In this document: piece after piece, positions 25,586-35,216 of the stretch | Position numbering within the stretch: position 1 is the first letter of the stretch | Layout: each line of letters opens with the position of its first letter | DNA from: an uncultured candidate division Zixibacteria bacterium | GTDB taxonomy: Bacteria; Zixibacteria; MSB-5A5; GN15; FEB-12 | Length of the DNA stretch: 64,000 nt | Assembly: GCA_963806185.1 (NCBI GenBank) | Contig: CAWDXE010000003.1 | Span: 256,001-320,000, forward strand | Reading direction: 5' to 3' | Made by a program: the position numbers and the translations under genes | Notes under the pieces: generated by a model | What the model was told of the DNA's origin: nothing | Database searches by the model: none | What the model saw: the letters and a program-made list of their open reading frames with translations, nothing else

Positions 25586-27023
25586 TCAGCTTCCGGCCCT
25601 GTGGTCGCTGTCACTCCCGGGTGCTTGCTCCCCTTTTTTTTTAAGGGTGACGGCCGTTTTCGGGGCCGGCAGCACCACTTTCTGGAAATGTGTCTCAACA
25701 AAAGAGGTGTCATACTTGCCGGCAACGAAATCAGGGTCCTGGAGTATCTGCTTGTGGTATTCGATGGTCGTTGGCACGCCCTGGACTACAAATTCGTCGA
25801 GCGCATGCCGCATTTTCATGATCGCTTCCGGCCGTGTCCGCGCCCGAACTATCAGCTTGGCGATCATCGAATCGTAGTACGGCGGAATCACATACCCGGC
25901 GTAGATGGCCTTGTCGACCCGCACGCCCGGTCCGCCCGGAATGTGCATCGCCTCGATGCGGCCAGGGCCGGGACGGAAATCATGTTCCGGATCTTCGGCA
26001 TTGATCCGACATTCGATGGCATGCCACTTGGGCTGTCAATTCGGCCTGGTTGAATTCGATCTTCTCGCCCAGCGCGACCCGGAACTGCTCGCGGACCAGG
26101 TCGACCTCGTACGCTTCTTCGGTAATCGGGTGCTCGACCTGGATACGCGTGTTCATCTCCATGAAGTAGAAACTGCCGCTCTCGTCGACCAGGCACTCGA
26201 TCGTGCCGACGCCGAGATAACCGATCGACCGGCAGGCCAATAGCGCTGCCTCACCCATCCGCTGACGCAGTTCCGTCGGTCATGAGCGGCGACGGCGTTT
26301 CCTCGATCAGCTTCTGGTGGCGACGCTGGATCGAGCAATCGCGCTCGCCGAAGTGATAGTAGTTGCCGTGCTTGTCGCCGATCACCTGGATTTCGATGTG
26401 ATGCGGATTGACGATGACCTTTTCGAGATACAGATCGGGATTGGAGAAGGCATTGGCTGCTTCGGTCGAGGCGATATGGAAAGCCGCGTTCGAGTTCGGA
26501 CACATCGCGACAGACGCGCATCCCCTTGCCGCCGCCGCCGGCGACCGCTTTGAGAATCACGGGATATCCGACTTTCTCGGCGATCTCGGATGCTTCTTCA
26601 AAAGTGGCGACCTTGCCGTCGGATCCGGGTATCACCGGTACGCCCGCTTTGCGCATGGTCTCTTTGGCCGCGATCTTGTCCCCCATGGTGCGAATCTGCG
26701 TCGGGCGTCGGGCCGATAAAGGTAATGCCGCAAGATTCGCAGATTTCGGCAAAGTCGGCGTTTTCGGCCAGGAAACCATACCCGGGGTGAATTGCGCCGG
26801 CGTTGCAGACTTCGGCCGCCGAGATGATTCGCTTGAAATCCAGATATGACTGGGAGGAGGCGGGCGGACCGATGCAGACGTCTTCATCGGCAAATCGGAC
26901 GTGCAGGGCATCGCGATCGGCTTCGGAATAGACGGCCACCGTCGCGAGGCCCAGTTCCCGGCAGGCGCGAATGATACGTAGGGCGATTTCGCCGCGATTG
27001 GCAATCAATACTTTGTTAAACAA
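25586..27023 (-). CDS. accC: Acetyl-CoA carboxylase biotin carboxylase (several apparent frameshifts)
   Basis: Pieces across frames: [56 protein letters not shown] and [12 protein letters not shown]. Confidence 0.93.
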
Positions 27024-27209
27024 AGAGTTTACCTTACTCCCTTCGGCTGATTTCTACCGCTGTATACGCAGCGTAAGCGGAAAGTATAACACATGCACCA
27101 CATCATCACAAGCCCCAATGGCAAAATTGGCCGCTTCGTCCGCGTCGCAGTCAACCATCTACCTGACAATGAATTGCACGAGAAATGAGGACTCGCAGAA
27201 GTCGAGCAT

Positions 27210-27241
27210 AAAAAAAGCCCGGCACACGTGGGCGGTCGGGC
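27210..27241 (-). terminator. Terminator after the pilT-like gene
   Basis: GCCCG...CGGGC stem followed by T7. Confidence 0.6.
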
Positions 27242-27263
27242 TGCATTGTCATGTCGGATCCAA

Positions 27264-28425
27264 TCAGAATTTGCCCAAGCGTGTTCGGCGAATCGCGATC
27301 GTTCTCGCTCGCCGGCCCCCTTTGTCGCCGCCGTTTCGTCCCAACGATCGGCCGCCCCGGTGATCCCGTTCAGCCGCAGATCGAAATCGTCGGGGTTGGT
27401 GGCGCTGTTGATCGCCTCTTCAAACGAGATCATACCCGGCTTGTGCAGCTTCATGATCGCCTGATCAAATGTCTGCATGCCGTACTGCGACTCCGCCCTG
27501 GGCCATCAGCTCCGGAATATCGGCTGTCTTGTCCGGCTCGATGATGCAGTCACGGACTGCGGCGGAGTTGATCATGACTTCCAGCGCCGGGACTCGACCG
27601 GGCATATCGGAGCGCGTCAACAGGCGCTGGCAGACGATCGCCTTGAGCGTACCGGCCAGCAGCAGACGAATCTGCTGATGCTGGTGCGGCGGGAAGAACG
27701 AAATGATACGGGTGATGGTCTCCACCACGTTCAGCGTGTGCAGCGTGGTCAGCACCAGGTGACCGGTGTCGGCCGCGGTCAGCGCGATCGACATCGTCTC
27801 CAGATCACGGACCTCACCGATGAGGATAACGTCGGGGTCCTGACGAAACGCGTGACGCAGCGCCGAGGCAAAAGTCTCGGTATCGCCGCCGACTTCGCGC
27901 TGGGAGATGATCGATTTCTTGTCGCGGTAGATATACTCGATCGGGTCTTCGACGGTCAGGATATTGCACGACCGGTTGGCGTTCATTTCTTCGATGATCG
28001 CCGCCAGCGTGGTCGATTTACCCGAACCGGTGGTTCCGGTGATGATGATCAGGCCGCGCTGTTCCGAGGCGAGTTTCTTGATGATCGGCGGCAGATTCAA
28101 GTTCTTCGAACGACGGCACCAGCGTGTTGACCGCACGGATGGCGATACCGGTGGTACCGCGCTGGCGGAACAGGTTGATACGGAAACGGCCCAGTTTCGC
28201 CACCGAAAGGGCGAGGTCCATTTCGTTCTTGCGGTAGAATCGCTCGAGCTGCTTTTCGTTGAGGATCTGCTGTACGATCTGATCCATCGTGTCGATGGTG
28301 ATCGGATCGGTAGCGATCTGCTCGAGCATACCGTTGACCCGCAGGTGCGGACGGACGCCGACGCGAATATGCAAGTCGGAGGCCTTGCGGTTGAGCATCT
28401 CAACCAGCATCTGCTTGAGATTCAT
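27264..28425 (-). CDS. Type IV pilus retraction-family ATPase (PilT/PilU-like), with apparent frameshifts; 3' end approximate
   Basis: ASDLHI, RFRINLFRQRG, GTTGSGKSTT, EDPIEY, RQDPDVILIGEVRD, TGHLVLTTLHT and GMQTFDQ. Confidence 0.9.
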
Positions 28426-30788: not shown

Positions 30789-30846
30789 TGGGGTAAAGAA
30801 ATGGTAAGAGCGGAGAGAAAGCAAGATGGGGGGATCGAATCGACTC

Positions 30847-31004
30847 GTACCCCATCCAACGGATGGGTTCGATTTCTCTGGCTTTCACCTTACGATGCTC
30901 GACGGACAAATATCCACGCGATTCTGGTCGTCGGTGATTCCACTACAGAGGACTATACAATGGGAAAACCAGAGAAAGAAAAACCCACCTGATAGGTGGG
31001 CTAC
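30847..31004. repeat. REPIN/MITE-like element: two inverted GTAG-type REP hairpins with extended inverted arms
   Basis: Left arm GTACCCCATCCAACGGATGGGTTCGATTTCTCTGG; right arm (reverse complement) GTAGCCCACCTATCAGGTGGGTTTTTCTTTCTCTGG. Confidence 0.65.
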
Positions 31005-31297
31005 AGGACTGGCTGGAGACGTATGCTTTGTCGGGGTATGCCTTTCAAACGGAAGCCGACGGGACGTTTGAGTCGTACGGCGGACCGACGCTGATTTTGT
31101 GTGGCCGGCAGGACAATATTGTCGGGTACGAGGATCAGTGGAGATTGATGGCGACGTATCCGCGAGCATCGTATGTCGTATTGGATCGGGCTGGGCACAA
31201 TCTGCCGGTGGAGGCACCGGAGGCGTTTCAGACACTGGTGACGGGATGGTTGCGGGGGGATTGGATGGGACACGATGGGAATAGGAGCAATCAATGA
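31005..31297 (+). pseudogene. C-terminal remnant of an alpha/beta hydrolase
   Basis: PTLILCGRQDNIVGY...SYVVLDRAGHNLPVE contains the Asp and His triad region. The N-terminal nucleophile half is absent, and the recognisable part begins at the REP hairpin. Confidence 0.7.
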
Positions 31298-32742
31298 GTA
31301 GTCAATCGCAACAGGACATCGATTTCTTCTTCGATTTCTTTCAAGCCAGGCTTGAATTCGTGAGGTCGCATTGCATAGATCGTATCGAAGGTGTCATTCT
31401 TCTTTGTTCATATGTGGATTCCTTAGCGGGATACAGATATGGAGGCACTACTGGCCCTGCTCGCTTCAAGAAATTCCTCATCGAGGATACCTTGTATTCG
31501 GAGACTTGGCGCAAGGTGAGCTTGATTCTTCTTCGGCAGTACTTGGAGAAGAAAGAACTCAAGTTATACGCGAAGGCAATAGAAGTGCTAAACCAGCTTG
31601 GTGCTAGGACCTCCAATTTCCGGGATTTGAATTATAACCCTGACATTCCTCTCGAATTGCTCCTGAACGAATTCAGTAAATCACTCTCTCGCAAGGAGAT
31701 CACCTTTTTCCAGAAGGACTTTGAACGATTTCAGTATTCGGCAATACTTTGGAATTGCTATCGAAACTCATCGGTGCACGAAAGCGCAGTAGGGCTGAAG
31801 AAGGCGATGAACTTAACAGATCAAAGCGAACCTTTCTATTCAAATGAACATTCGGGACACGACGGCAGTATCTTAGATCACACTCGGTTCGACATTCCAA
31901 TGCAGTTCTTGGTCCGTTCCATCGAAAGTGGTCTGCAGAAACTCAGAGAATTGGCTAATGCGGGGCAATGGCACCCGGAGGTTTCGGTACCGTACGATGA
32001 CCCCATATACGTGTCGCAGTCTAGCGCTGATGAAAGGGACAATGCAAAGATTGGCTATCCTCGAATGATTACTAAACCGTTTAGATCACTACTTGCAGAT
32101 TTGGGAAACTTACTCGAACAGGCCAAAACACATCACGGATTATTCGAGACTACGGGAGAAGGAATTCATAGATGGCGTGAAGGAGCAATGTCGAGAAGTG
32201 CAATAGTGACCTCGGTATTCTTCTTGGAATCCATAGTGAATTCTATTGTAAAGGACTTTTCGATCCGAGAACCGTATCAACTGACCGAGACGCTTTTGAA
32301 GCGTTACAACCTATTGCATCAACGATTTGATCGCCTTCCACTAATTGATCGCGTCTTCCTAGTACCATATATCTGTTCATCAAATGAAGGGAACTTGGTA
32401 TCAGGATTCTTCGAGAAGAGATCAAAGGAGTTCCTGTCACTTCAGGAACTCATTGCAATTCGTGACGGGTTTGCCCACAGCCGACCTGTCAAGCGTCGGA
32501 TGACCATTACGAAGTCTAGTGAAGGAGAATATATTGCGGACGATCAGTTCAAAGAGAATTTCTGGCCCCATACACAGATTCCGAAAGATATCTTCATTAT
32601 AGAATGGAGCAATGCGATAACTGCGAAGCAAATTGTCGACTGGGCTGTAGAGCAACTCGACCGATTTCTTGAGGGCCGCATCGCTCAAAGGAACTGGATG
32701 AACGATGAGTTGATTGAGTTTGATCCTAATGTGCGATCGTGA
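31294..32742 (+). CDS. Hypothetical 482-aa protein with two putative HEPN (RxxxxH) domains
   Basis: AGGAG RBS; YRNSSVHE (R157-H162) and IRDGFAHS (R390-H395); helical character; AT-richer than the flanks (25/60 GC in 31321-31380). Confidence 0.75.
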   Translation: MSSQSQQDIDFFFDFFQARLEFVRSHCIDRIEGVILLCSYVDSLAGYRYGGTTGPARFKKFLIEDTLYSETWRKVSLILLRQYLEKKELKLYAKAIEVLNQLGARTSNFRDLNYNPDIPLELLLNEFSKSLSRKEITFFQKDFERFQYSAILWNCYRNSSVHESAVGLKKAMNLTDQSEPFYSNEHSGHDGSILDHTRFDIPMQFLVRSIESGLQKLRELANAGQWHPEVSVPYDDPIYVSQSSADERDNAKIGYPRMITKPFRSLLADLGNLLEQAKTHHGLFETTGEGIHRWREGAMSRSAIVTSVFFLESIVNSIVKDFSIREPYQLTETLLKRYNLLHQRFDRLPLIDRVFLVPYICSSNEGNLVSGFFEKRSKEFLSLQELIAIRDGFAHSRPVKRRMTITKSSEGEYIADDQFKENFWPHTQIPKDIFIIEWSNAITAKQIVDWAVEQLDRFLEGRIAQRNWMNDELIEFDPNVRS

Positions 32743-32871: not shown

Positions 32872-35065
32872 TCACCTATGATGAAACGCCCGCCCCGTCG
32901 GCGTCACGTTCAACTCTTTCACCAGTTCGTCCAGATGATAGACCCGATCAATTACGAACATGATATACCGAGCGTCACAGACAATCGTCCGCGTAACCTC
33001 GGGATTAAACAAGTAATCCGACGCCACTCCCTCCCAGTTGCCGTCAAACGCCACACCGATCAGTTTCCCCTCGCCGTTGATCACTGGGCTACCTGAATTG
33101 CCGCCGGTAATATCGTTGGTGGTCAGGAAATTCACCGGAACGTCGCCGATATTGCCGTCGACCCACGGACCGAAATCTCTGTCGCGAAAAGCCGTGCGCA
33201 GCGAATCGGGAACGATAAACGGATCCTTGCCGTTTTCCTTCTCCATGACCCCGTGCAAGCCGGTCAGATAGTGATAGGTGACGGCGTCGCGCGGGACATA
33301 CCCTTTCACCTCACCGTAGCTGAGACGCATGGAGCCGTTGGCGTCGGGATACATCTTCGCCTGTTTCCAATCGGACATGGCTTGAATCAACATCGGCGCC
33401 AGGCGCGTTTCCGCCCCGGAGAACGCCTTGCCCTCCTCGCGCATTACGTCGGCTTCCGGCTTAAGTGCGCGTGCCAGCGCAATGAACGGATCATCGATCT
33501 TGTCCAGTTGCGCCTTGGTCATGGCAAACATTGCCAAGCGCTGATCGGTCTCGCCCATCTTGGTACGGACAAACCAGTCGTCGACCACCCGATCGATTTC
33601 GGCCCGCTTGTCACTCGCTTCGGCGAACAACTTCTTCACCGGGGCGATTTGCTGGTCGGACGGCAGATCGACCGCGCGCGCCAGGTAGTACCGGAATACT
33701 TCTTTGTCCGCCTCCGGCACCAGATTGATCTGCGCGTTTTTGAGCCGCTCTTTTGCGGTCAACGTATCCCGCGCCTGGAAACCGCGATCGCGCTGCAGGT
33801 CGGGTTTCTCCCGTTCACAGGCCCAGCGATAGATCGTACTGGCGAGACGGAGGTAATCGCATCCCCAGGTCATGCGGCCCGAGTAAGAAGTCGTGCTCTT
33901 GAGATTTTTGAGACGATGCATACAGGCTGTCGAGCGACTTGAGGACACGACCGTATTTTGCTTGCATCGTCTTGTCCTTACTCATGAATTCGGTAAGCTG
34001 GCGTTCCAGTTCGCGCTTCTGCGCCAGCGTATTCCCCTTCTTGAACCCCTCCATGACACCGTAGCTCTTCTTCAGGCCGTTGTTGAGTCCCGCGAGATCG
34101 GACGCCAGACGGAGCGCGATGGCCGAATCTCGTTCACCGGCCCGGTTGAGAATGTTGATCTGATCCTCAGACGCCTGAATCGAATGCGGGTACGAGAATT
34201 CCATTCGCTCGGCCAGATCGAATGAGCTGATGTGCCGCGAGGTGTTGCCGGGGAATCCGATCGTCATCGCCAGGTCACCTTCCTTGACGCCCGCAGTGGA
34301 GAACGGGAGAAACACTTTCGGGCAGTAAGGCACGTTGTTCGCCGAGTAGTCAGCCGGCTGGCCATCGGGCGCCACATATGCGCGCAGGAAAGAAAAATCG
34401 CCCACGTGGCGCGGCCACATCCAATTGTCGATGTCGCCGCCATAGTTGCCGATCGCTTCCGGCGGGACATAAACCATGCGGACATCGCGAATCTCCAGCG
34501 TCGTGTACAACATGTACTGCTTGCCGCCGAACATTGACGCCACACGCGCCTTGATCGCTTTGCCTTCTTCCGTCGCTTTGACCAGCTTCTTGATATTCAG
34601 ATCGATTGTCTTGAAGCGATCAATATCGGAAAGTCTGTCGGTAACACCCTTCTTGATCTCCTTAGTCACGTCCTGCACCGAGAGAGTGACATATACTTTA
34701 TAGCCGATGGCTTCGACTTCTTTGTCCCGGGTTGGGGCGTAGAAGCCGTCCCGCAGATAATTGTGCTCGACCGTGCTCTGCTCCTGCACGGCGCCGAAAG
34801 CAACGTGATGATTGGTGAGAATGAGGCCGTCCGACGATACGAATGACCCGGTCGCTCCGCCGACCTGCACGACTGCGTCGGCGAGAGCGCTGCCGCCGGT
34901 GTTATAAATCTGCGAGGGCTCAAGCTTGAGACCCCGCATGCGGAGAAAATCAAGCGGGAGCTGGTCGACGCTGTAGAGGGGCCACATTCCTTCATCGGCC
35001 ATGCTAGCTGATATCAGACTCAGTGAGAGAGCAAGAGTGAGAACAACGCGAATCATGAGGCGCAT
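32872..35065 (-). CDS. S46-family dipeptidyl peptidase (DPP7/DPP11-like), apparent frameshift near 33885
   Basis: Signal peptide then ADEGMW, LTNHHV, DNWMWPRH, YPDANGSMRLSYG, DITGGNSGSPV and FDGNWEG. Upstream promoter TTGTAA-17-TATTTT. Confidence 0.92.
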
Positions 35066-35216
35066 AATGGGGACTCCTTCCTGTTCGGGACAAAATAGGA
35101 TTATCTTGTCCGGTTTACAAGAAAAGAGTGTACCTGAAGGCCTACAATGATGGGTCGTGATAGCGAGCACGCCGCATGATCTGCGGATGCGTTGGGCCGT
35201 TGACGTGTTCCTGGGT

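What the first reader, a model, noticed from the sequence alone, without database searches (positions are those of the whole stretch)
31294..32742. Horizontally acquired stand-alone protein with two HEPN-like RxxxxH domains: candidate novel anti-phage RNase
Seen: this is the only long credible plus-strand gene, and it is AT-richer than its flanks. It has two apparent domains joined by a linker (around aa 225-255). The N-domain has LLCSYVDSLA...RFKKFL...YRNSSVHE; the C-domain has SAIVTSVFFLESIVN...IRDGFAHSRP. Each has an upstream helix with an acidic residue and a distal RxxxxH. Known: HEPN RNases form a composite site from two RxxxxH motifs, within one chain in Cas13 and as dimers in toxins and Abi proteins. 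Inference: two dissimilar HEPN domains are fused into a compact single-gene defence or toxin effector, with no CRISPR array, cas gene or antitoxin nearby.
Basis: partly seen in the sequence, partly recalled or inferred. Interest (0 to 1): 0.75.

Follow-up and report, generated by a model that had tools for sequence, protein, structure and literature searches.

The report
Two unrelated HEPN RNase domains fused
This lone, AT-rich gene joins two protein domains that elsewhere occur as separate genes, each predicted to have the HEPN RNA-cutting fold and each keeping a conserved R-x4-H motif, so it likely encodes a two-headed RNase that would shut down phage-infected cells, although no activity has been tested.

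Summary
The 482-aa ORF is real, isolated on the plus strand and strongly AT-rich (45% GC; genome 56%). Two RxxxxH motifs in one protein are common by chance, but these two are conserved. R157/H162 is intact in 14 of 15 fused relatives and 130 of 131 distant N-family proteins. R390/H395 is invariant in all 38 C-family proteins. Both halves align to HEPN structures at modest scores (C-half Z up to 8.6; N-half up to 6.7, weaker).

The halves are not duplicates of each other. Each is a family of stand-alone ~240-aa genes. Among 285 genomes of the phylum the fusion occurs in 2, the N-family in 11 and the C-family in 38. One fused relative lost the N motif and kept the C motif, and another lineage lost the whole C-half.

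So the halves are independent modules, and I favour two separate sites formed between chains over a Cas13-like site within one chain, which was not shown. No cas1, array or antitoxin lies nearby. Defence is inferred by analogy with HepS, ApeA and DARNA; defence-island context is weak. Verdict: an undescribed two-HEPN architecture, a new variant of a known kind.

The parts
31294..32742 (+). Stand-alone gene, 482 aa, fusion of two unrelated HEPN-like domain families
   Evidence: GC 45.1%
31294..31989 (+). N-domain (aa 1-232): predicted HEPN-type helices H1 2-27, H2 31-49 (E32, D42), a ~95-aa insert, H3 148-161 ending in R157-N158-x3-H162, a beta hairpin 181-200 and H4 203-222. Member of a large family of mostly stand-alone 220-320-aa proteins
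   Evidence: model pLDDT 91.6, pTM 0.89; R157 131/131, H162 130/131, D42 D or E 130/131; 511 clusters at E<=0.001; aligns to AbiV Z 6.7 and HEPN toxins Z 6.4-6.6; weak and mixed when searched alone
31762..31779 (+). RNSSVH, first RxxxxH motif (R157-H162)
31984..32073 (+). Variable linker, about aa 231-260, predicted disordered, length conserved
32050..32742 (+). C-domain (aa ~253-482): predicted HEPN fold; E312, R390 and H395 are the only invariant residues of the family
   Evidence: VIA-align top four rows all HEPN, Z 7.7-8.6, 5yep Z 8.1; invariant in 38/38; weak Pfam HEPN_RiboL-PSP in 6/21 relatives; weak PADLOC RTasHEPN in 8/21
32461..32478 (+). RDGFAH, second RxxxxH motif (R390-H395)
31028..31297 (+). 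89-aa remnant of an alpha/beta-hydrolase C-terminus whose stop overlaps the gene's start; host-like GC (57%); not seen beside other homologues, so probably not part of the system
   Evidence: Pfam Abhydrolase_1 positions 195-245 of 245, E 1.3e-5
30842..31014 (.). ~170-bp palindromic non-coding repeat (REP-like) with 3 further near-full copies in the genome; context only

Best explanation
The protein is a fusion of two domain families that also occur as separate genes, each predicted to be a HEPN RNase, and it likely works as a two-headed, antitoxin-free abortive-infection effector in which each domain would pair with the same domain of another chain to form its own RNA-cutting site. Shown here: the gene, the two separately living families, their conserved acidic residue plus RxxxxH, and separate loss of either the motif or the domain. 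Predicted: HEPN fold for both halves (C stronger than N). Inferred from known HEPN biology: N-N' and C-C' composite sites, metal-independent cleavage of tRNA or mRNA, a resting state that is off without an antitoxin, and activation by a phage-derived cue. The family-specific inserts (aa ~55-145 and the 181-200 hairpin in N; aa ~325-375 and ~397-435 in C) are the likely sensing or substrate-binding parts. Fusion would give one gene two triggers or two RNA specificities, or let the chains cross-link into a larger oligomer.
For: Motif: R157 131/131 and H162 130/131 in distant N-family proteins; E312, R390 and H395 are the only columns invariant in 38/38 C-family proteins. This matches the HEPN definition of RxxxxH at the end of helix 3, a polar residue after R and an acidic residue in helix 2 (PMC3710099 passages; models). 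Fold. Independence of the halves: N versus C profile probability 0.3%. The N-family is in 11/285 and the C-family in 38/285 genomes, fused in 2. Four of 8 determinate N-only genomes have no C-family gene (three of them 95-100% complete), and in the other four the genes are not adjacent. P0007 lost the N motif and departs at 17/64 conserved N columns but only 5/79 C columns. P0015 is N-only yet nests among fused proteins. Lone, low-GC placement: 18/19 homologous genes are more than 3 points below their flanks, at a different site in each locus read. Precedent: HepS, ApeA and DARNA are single-gene HEPN defences without an antitoxin that dimerise in trans and oligomerise.
Against: No activity, trigger, substrate or oligomer was tested. 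Fold scores are within the range the tool calls ambiguous for helical bundles; searched alone, the N-half ranked unrelated bundles and DinB proteins above HEPN entries (best HEPN Z 5.4; none), and Foldseek found nothing at E<=0.001. There is no PADLOC, Pfam or NCBIfam hit for the protein, and none for 76 N-family proteins in PADLOC. A clear defence-type neighbour was found at only 4 of 27 loci, with no background control. No relative was found in viral contigs, phages or plasmids. Both motifs are kept in 14/15 fused proteins and the linker length is conserved, which also fits a site within one chain. The independence argument leans on one motif-loss protein and one nested truncation.
Confidence: 0.5

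Rival explanations
1. Cas13-like cis heterodimer: the two unlike HEPN domains fold back on each other, so R157/H162 and R390/H395 make one composite site in a single chain, without guide RNA.
For: Both motifs are kept in 14/15 fused proteins at 35-59% identity. The spacer is 30-35 aa in 15/15. The fusion is stable across at least 16 proteins. An engineered flexible-linker fusion of two Las1 HEPN domains was used as a working chimera (10.1101/760058 passages).
Against: The full-length model does not fix the two domains against each other (pTM 0.48), although the N-domain alone gives pTM 0.89. The stand-alone halves are never adjacent and mostly occur without each other. P0007 keeps a conserved C-domain after the N motif decayed. 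An N-only gene arose inside the fused clade.
Confidence: 0.2
2. Both halves are HEPN RNases, but the role is not phage defence: a stress or dormancy toxin, a selfish addiction-type gene, or a low-level RNA-processing enzyme.
For: Most loci lie among housekeeping genes. There is no PADLOC match and no relative on phages or plasmids.
Against: No antitoxin or regulator accompanies any locus read. The patchy, low-GC, site-hopping pattern is what single-gene defences show (own knowledge). A few loci sit beside an AbiJ-NTD4 protein, a methyltransferase or a DUF5131 protein. HepS also has no partner genes (PMC13043305 passages).
Confidence: 0.2
3. Only the C-domain is a HEPN RNase; the N-domain is another helical bundle (DinB-like or nucleotidyltransferase substrate-binding-like) that acts as a sensor or metal-binding module.
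For: The N-half searched alone gave DinB/YfiT Z 6.1 and LinB/ANT4 Z 5.9, above HEPN Z 5.2-5.4. Only 2 of 127 N-family proteins had even a weak HEPN Pfam hit.
Against: R and H of the motif are the two most conserved residues in 131 distant relatives and sit at the end of helix 3. In one search the compact matches to aa 4-225 were AbiV and two HEPN toxin chains, covering 110-116 residues.
Confidence: 0.1

Closest known systems
HepS (HEPN Solo, Salmonella Gifsy-1; PMC13043305, passages read)
   Same: Single-gene, partner-free protein made essentially of HEPN with RX4-6H; closest functional model for each half
   Different: One HEPN domain per chain, tetramer, prophage-encoded, with known trigger and tRNA targets; no sequence or structure match to HepS was found or specifically tested here
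ApeA and DARNA/PD-T7-3 (10.64898/2026.01.26.701840 abstract and one section; 10.64898/2026.02.22.705581 abstract and passages)
   Same: Single-gene HEPN defences of similar size without an antitoxin; composite sites formed between chains, higher oligomers
   Different: One HEPN domain plus non-catalytic sensor domains; here the second domain is itself a motif-bearing HEPN-like domain; no PADLOC match
Cas13 (type VI CRISPR effector)
   Same: Two unlike HEPN domains, each with RxxxxH, in one chain
   Different: 482 aa with no room for a guide-binding lobe; no array or cas1; a site within one chain is not shown; no similarity by sequence
Other two-HEPN chains: Swt1 and Csx1/MJ1666 (PMC3710099 Table 1 passages), CoCoNuT type III-A CnuE (PMC11090510, one passage)
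   Same: Two HEPN domains in one polypeptide outside Cas13, so tandem HEPN as such is known
   Different: Those carry PIN, CARF or helicase domains; Swt1 is listed as inactive and CnuE has one shortened RxH motif. Here there is nothing but the two domains, both with full motifs
HEPN-MNT toxins (HepT; PDB 5yep, 7ae2, 7ae8) and AbiV (9bj7)
   Same: Best structural matches of the C-half (HepT-type) and N-half (AbiV, HepT-type)
   Different: No adjacent MNT or other antitoxin; large family-specific inserts
Pfam HEPN_RiboL-PSP (PF18735) and PADLOC RTasHEPN
   Same: Weak profile matches in C-family relatives (6/21, best E 6.4e-4; 8/21, best E 0.001)
   Different: The window protein itself does not match either; no L-PSP fusion, and no reverse transcriptase among the neighbours read

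Membership tests
HEPN superfamily (C-domain) | Conserved Rx4-6H at the end of helix 3, polar residue after R, acidic residue in helix 2 | tested here: met
   E312, R390, H395 invariant 38/38; residue 391 is D or N in 14/15 fused proteins; helix 378-395
HEPN superfamily (C-domain) | Four-helix HEPN fold | tested here: met
   Top four of 48,161 chains are HEPN entries, Z 7.7-8.6; three align 120-133 residues, one 71; 5yep Z 8.1, rmsd 3.9, 130/132. Predicted model, modest Z
HEPN superfamily (N-domain) | Conserved Rx4-6H at the end of helix 3, polar residue after R, acidic residue in helix 2 | tested here: met
   R157 131/131, H162 130/131, D42 D/E 130/131; N158 in 14/15 fused; helix 148-161
HEPN superfamily (N-domain) | Four-helix HEPN fold | tested here: inconclusive
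   AbiV Z 6.7 (rmsd 3.9, 114/165), 7ae9 Z 6.6, 7ae8 Z 6.4; alone, HEPN entries Z 5.2-5.4 below unrelated bundles at Z 6.7; nothing
HEPN superfamily | Metal-independent RNase activity from a two-motif composite site | not testable with these tools
Cas13 / type VI CRISPR | Adjacent CRISPR array, crRNA-binding lobe, protein of roughly 800-1300 aa (size recalled) | tested here: not met
   482 aa made up of the two domains; no array in the window and no cas1 in the 82% complete genome
Cas13 / type VI CRISPR | Two HEPN motifs converge within one chain | tested here: inconclusive
   pTM 0.48, spacer pLDDT below 50; model coordinates could not be read to measure distances
HEPN-MNT toxin-antitoxin | MNT antitoxin gene next to or fused with HEPN | tested here: not met
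   Neighbours are a hydrolase remnant, a TPR protein and an S46 peptidase; Polbeta hits only on another contig
ApeA / DARNA / other PADLOC-listed systems | Match to the system's profile HMM | tested here: not met
   0 PADLOC 2.0 families for the protein or its halves at E<=1; the library dates from 2023 and cannot hold HepS
Single-gene HEPN abortive-infection systems (functional class) | Phage protection that depends on the catalytic His; non-toxic until triggered | not testable with these tools
   needs phage challenge
Single-gene HEPN abortive-infection systems (functional class) | Enrichment in defence islands or mobile elements | tested here: inconclusive
   4 of 27 loci with a clear defence-type neighbour among 61 hand-picked neighbours, no control; none found in viral, phage or plasmid collections

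The most novel reading that the evidence does not exclude
A minimal, guide-free Cas13-like RNase: two unrelated HEPN families fused so that their RxxxxH motifs build one asymmetric active site within a single 482-aa chain. It would be a natural snapshot of how cis-heterodimeric HEPN sites arise from homodimeric ones, with living stand-alone versions of both halves available for comparison.
Probability: 0.2. Interest if true: 0.8.

Novelty: new variant of a known kind. Interest (0 to 1): 0.52.

Why it matters
It adds two unannotated HEPN-like families, one with at least 511 clusters at 50% identity, and a fusion of them that no library searched here recognises. Fused, N-only, C-only and half-dead natural versions all exist. 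That makes one question directly testable with a few mutants: can two different HEPN domains in one chain share an active site outside Cas13, or does fusion simply stack two independent toxins? A shared site would give a very small single-chain RNase and a model for how Cas13's paired HEPN site could arise. Independent sites would make it a dual-effector single-gene defence.

Tried and rejected
Pfam, PADLOC and NCBIfam on the protein or its halves gave nothing meaningful. PDB sequence searches with three profiles gave no hit below E 0.1. Foldseek on both models had no match at E<=0.001. Internal duplication was rejected; one search was circular, because alignment A2 held full-length rows, and was discarded. 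The third RxxxxH (R337-H342) was rejected as chance, 2/15. Fusion as an assembly artefact was rejected: at least 16 independent fused proteins exist, although neighbouring genes in this window do look frameshifted. An operon of separate N and C genes was not seen at any locus read. The hydrolase remnant and the palindromic repeat were rejected as parts of the system: among the loci held, the remnant matched only this locus, and the repeat matched only this locus plus a 27-bp piece in L035. No insertion-site repeats, tRNA gene or sigma-70 promoter were found. Viral contigs (2 scans), phages and plasmids gave no relative. No sequencing run was listed, which says nothing about expression. Complex prediction of N-half with C-half was not available, so there is no result either way. 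ESM Atlas returned only unnamed clusters at 0.93-0.96. Earlier findings of the scan: none returned. Seven literature searches listed no paper describing this family or a protein made only of two intact HEPN domains; the library lacks most subscription journals and I read no supplements, where defence-candidate tables could hold either half.

Full report
Observation. The ORF at 31294-32742 (+) encodes 482 aa with the quoted motifs. It is the only plus-strand ORF of 200 aa or more that does not overlap a long minus-strand ORF; the other 20 do, and none of them has a Pfam hit. Its GC is 45.1% against 56.4% for the genome, about five standard deviations below the mean of 918 long ORFs (57.1 +/- 2.3%; the set includes shadow frames). 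It has no meaningful Pfam, PADLOC or NCBIfam match. The flanks are a TPR gene and an Xaa-Pro-peptidase-like gene on one side (the latter name is my reading of the translation) and an S46 peptidase on the other, with an 89-aa alpha/beta-hydrolase remnant overlapping the start codon. No cas1, tRNA gene or adjacent nucleotidyltransferase was found; the genome is 82% complete. The host is inferred to be a zixibacterium: locus L001, whose record is titled Zixiibacteriota, gives the same ORF as genome G103, listed as the same family.

Are the motifs more than chance? In one sequence, no: 21% of shuffles have two or more RxxxxH, and the protein has three. Across relatives, yes. In 15 aligned fused proteins, R157/H162 is intact in 14, R390/H395 in 15 and R337/H342 in 2. 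A profile of the N-half found 511 clusters at E<=0.001 among 1.84 billion representatives; the best 150 were listed and most are stand-alone proteins of 220-320 aa. Of the 141 newly listed proteins, the 131 of at least 190 aa were aligned: R157 is kept in 131, H162 in 130, and D42 is D or E in 130. In 38 C-family sequences the only invariant columns are E312, R390 and H395. This is the HEPN signature as defined in PMC3710099 (passages): Rx4-6H at the end of helix 3, a polar residue after R, and an acidic residue in helix 2.

Fold. The full-length model (pLDDT 72.9, pTM 0.48) has two helical domains and a low-confidence spacer at 231-260. Against 48,161 chains the four best matches all cover the C-half and are HEPN entries: 2hsb Z 8.6 (rmsd 3.2, 120 of 126), 1wol 7.8, sacsin HEPN 7.8 and the HEPN toxin 7ae2 7.7. 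A second look gave 5yep Z 8.1 for the C-half and, for aa 4-225, AbiV Z 6.7 (rmsd 3.9, 114 of 165) and HEPN toxins 7ae9 and 7ae8 at Z 6.6 and 6.4. Against this, the N-half modelled alone (pLDDT 91.6, pTM 0.89) ranked unrelated bundles, DinB/YfiT and nucleotidyltransferase C-terminal domains (Z 5.9-6.7) above HEPN entries (4nqf 5.4, Csm6 5.2, LAS1L 5.2). One search listed nothing useful and Foldseek found nothing significant. All these Z values lie in the range the tool calls ambiguous for helical bundles. Profile hints point the same way: HEPN_RiboL-PSP in 6 of 21 C-family proteins (best E 6.4e-4), PADLOC RTasHEPN in 8 of 21 (best E 0.001), and a weak HEPN Pfam hit in 2 of 127 N-family proteins. 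I take the C-half as HEPN with good confidence, and the N-half as probably HEPN, mainly on motif and topology.

The halves do not align with each other beyond the motif (probability 0.3%). In 285 genomes of the phylum, the N-family occurs in 11 and the C-family in 38 (seven of those 38 only at E 1e-6 to 1e-5), and the fused form in 2, G000 and G103. The window's own genome has a second, stand-alone C-family gene on another contig. Of 9 genomes with an unfused N match, one is cut by a contig end. Of the other 8, four have no C-family gene (100, 96, 95 and 87% complete) and four have one elsewhere: on another contig, 1.9 Mb away, or 6 kb away with other genes between. At least 16 fused proteins exist: 13 (two of them cut short; the cluster mate of one is full length), plus L001, L038 and P0026. 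In trees, fused N-halves are not one clade (AU p 2.9e-12): the N-only P0015 nests among fused proteins with starred support, and the fused L038 groups with stand-alone ones. For fused C-halves one origin is not ruled out. The trees are unrooted, so one fusion with repeated loss of the C-half and repeated fusion both fit. P0007 lost the N motif and departs at 17 of 64 conserved N columns but only 5 of 79 C columns, so its C-domain stays constrained without an intact N motif.

Context and mobility. Twenty relatives of the same family, picked by score and contig length from 100 that carry the flanking peptidase, all keep the peptidase-TPR pair. None has this gene, the hydrolase remnant or the S46 gene in the 4-8 kb fetched. 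No genome of the same genus is held, so an empty site could not be shown. Homologues sit as lone genes at a different place in each locus read, and 18 of 19 measured are more than 3 GC points below their flanks (L050 and L057 were left out). Of 61 hand-picked neighbours from 27 loci, clear defence-type matches occur at four loci: DUF5131/PDC-M41B beside fused P0007, a type II methyltransferase, an AbiJ-NTD4/PDC-S32 protein, and PDC-S05 about 2 kb away. A MrfA-type helicase at a fifth locus is ambiguous, and the other hits are generic domains such as cysteine desulfurase. There was no background control. No relative was found in viral contigs, phages or plasmids, and no flanking repeat marks an insertion. 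Acquisition is therefore likely, but probably within the phylum, by an unknown vehicle; low GC is a trait of the whole family and does not date it.

Mechanism. Characterised HEPN nucleases need two juxtaposed motifs, usually from two chains; as of that 2019 preprint, pairing within one chain had been seen only in Cas13 (10.1101/760058 passages). Single-gene HEPN defences without an antitoxin are established. HepS is an inactive tetramer opened by a tail-tip protein (PMC13043305 passages). ApeA forms dimers and rings activated by a ligand (abstract and one section). DARNA is a dodecamer activated by SSB-bound ssDNA (abstract and passages). All three cut tRNA. Stand-alone N and C proteins mostly occur without each other and so presumably homodimerise, and either part can be lost alone. 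The simplest reading is therefore that the fused protein keeps both homotypic interfaces and carries two separate sites, switched on by infection (confidence 0.5; sites, trigger, substrate and defence role are all inferred). A non-defence RNase or toxin (0.2) and a non-HEPN N-domain (0.1) are the other rivals.

Comparison and verdict. It is not Cas13 (no array, no cas1, no guide-binding lobe), not a HEPN-MNT pair, and not a PADLOC-listed system. It works most plausibly like HepS, ApeA or DARNA. Two HEPN domains in one chain are known outside Cas13: Swt1 and Csx1/MJ1666 (PMC3710099 table passages) and CoCoNuT III-A CnuE (PMC11090510, one passage). Those carry other domains and, for Swt1 and CnuE, a dead or shortened motif. 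Seven searches listed no description of a protein made only of two intact, unrelated HEPN domains; of one further preprint (10.64898/2025.12.03.690598) I saw only the abstract, and no supplements were read. Verdict: real, undescribed architecture, a new variant of a known kind; interest 0.52, rising to about 0.8 if the two motifs prove to share one site.

Noticed in passing
window 30842-31014; G000 C6:138551-138714, C6:228020-228192, C5:55800-55967, partial copies on C1, C6, C7: ~170-bp palindromic non-coding repeat (fold z -3.97) with three further near-full copies at 82-85% identity. Partial copies flank an ORF at C6:108075-108650 that looks like a REP-associated tyrosine transposase (label recalled, not from a call). 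A 69-bp-period array at C1:835779-836876 shares its hairpin. Probably a REP/REPIN-like family.
   Followed up: partly
G000:C1:979311-979997 (-), loci L005 and L055: Second, stand-alone C-family gene (239 aa, RNAIVH, 24% identical to the C-half) in the same genome, lone and lower in GC than its flanks.
   Followed up: partly
window 25586-27023, 27029-28425, 32872-35170: Biotin-carboxylase-like and PilT-like genes (names from my reading of the translations) and the S46 peptidase are each split over overlapping frames; S46 relatives have single open frames of 730-810 aa. Likely indel errors in this assembly.
   Followed up: partly
P0176 (984 aa; cluster mate of P0150): An N-family domain with intact RxxxxH at the C-terminus of a long protein with a four-cysteine zinc-ribbon-like stretch and a PD-(D/E)xK-like stretch (both recalled patterns); no Pfam or PADLOC hit. 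May be a further fusion or a read-through gene call.
   Followed up: partly
L056:3708-6756: A C-family gene starts 11 bp after a DEAD-box helicase with a MrfA Zn-binding domain, same strand; the only helicase pairing seen.
   Followed up: no
L040:74-1741: A C-family gene directly follows an AbiJ-NTD4 protein (PADLOC PDC-S32), forming a small low-GC two-gene defence-like island.
   Followed up: partly
L036:1485-3234: A fused homologue is followed by a transposase-like ORF (IS1595-like, label recalled) and a P63C-domain gene.
   Followed up: no
L037:705-2216 (P0007): Natural half-dead variant: N motif lost, C motif intact, next to a DUF5131 gene; a ready-made control for experiments.
   Followed up: yes
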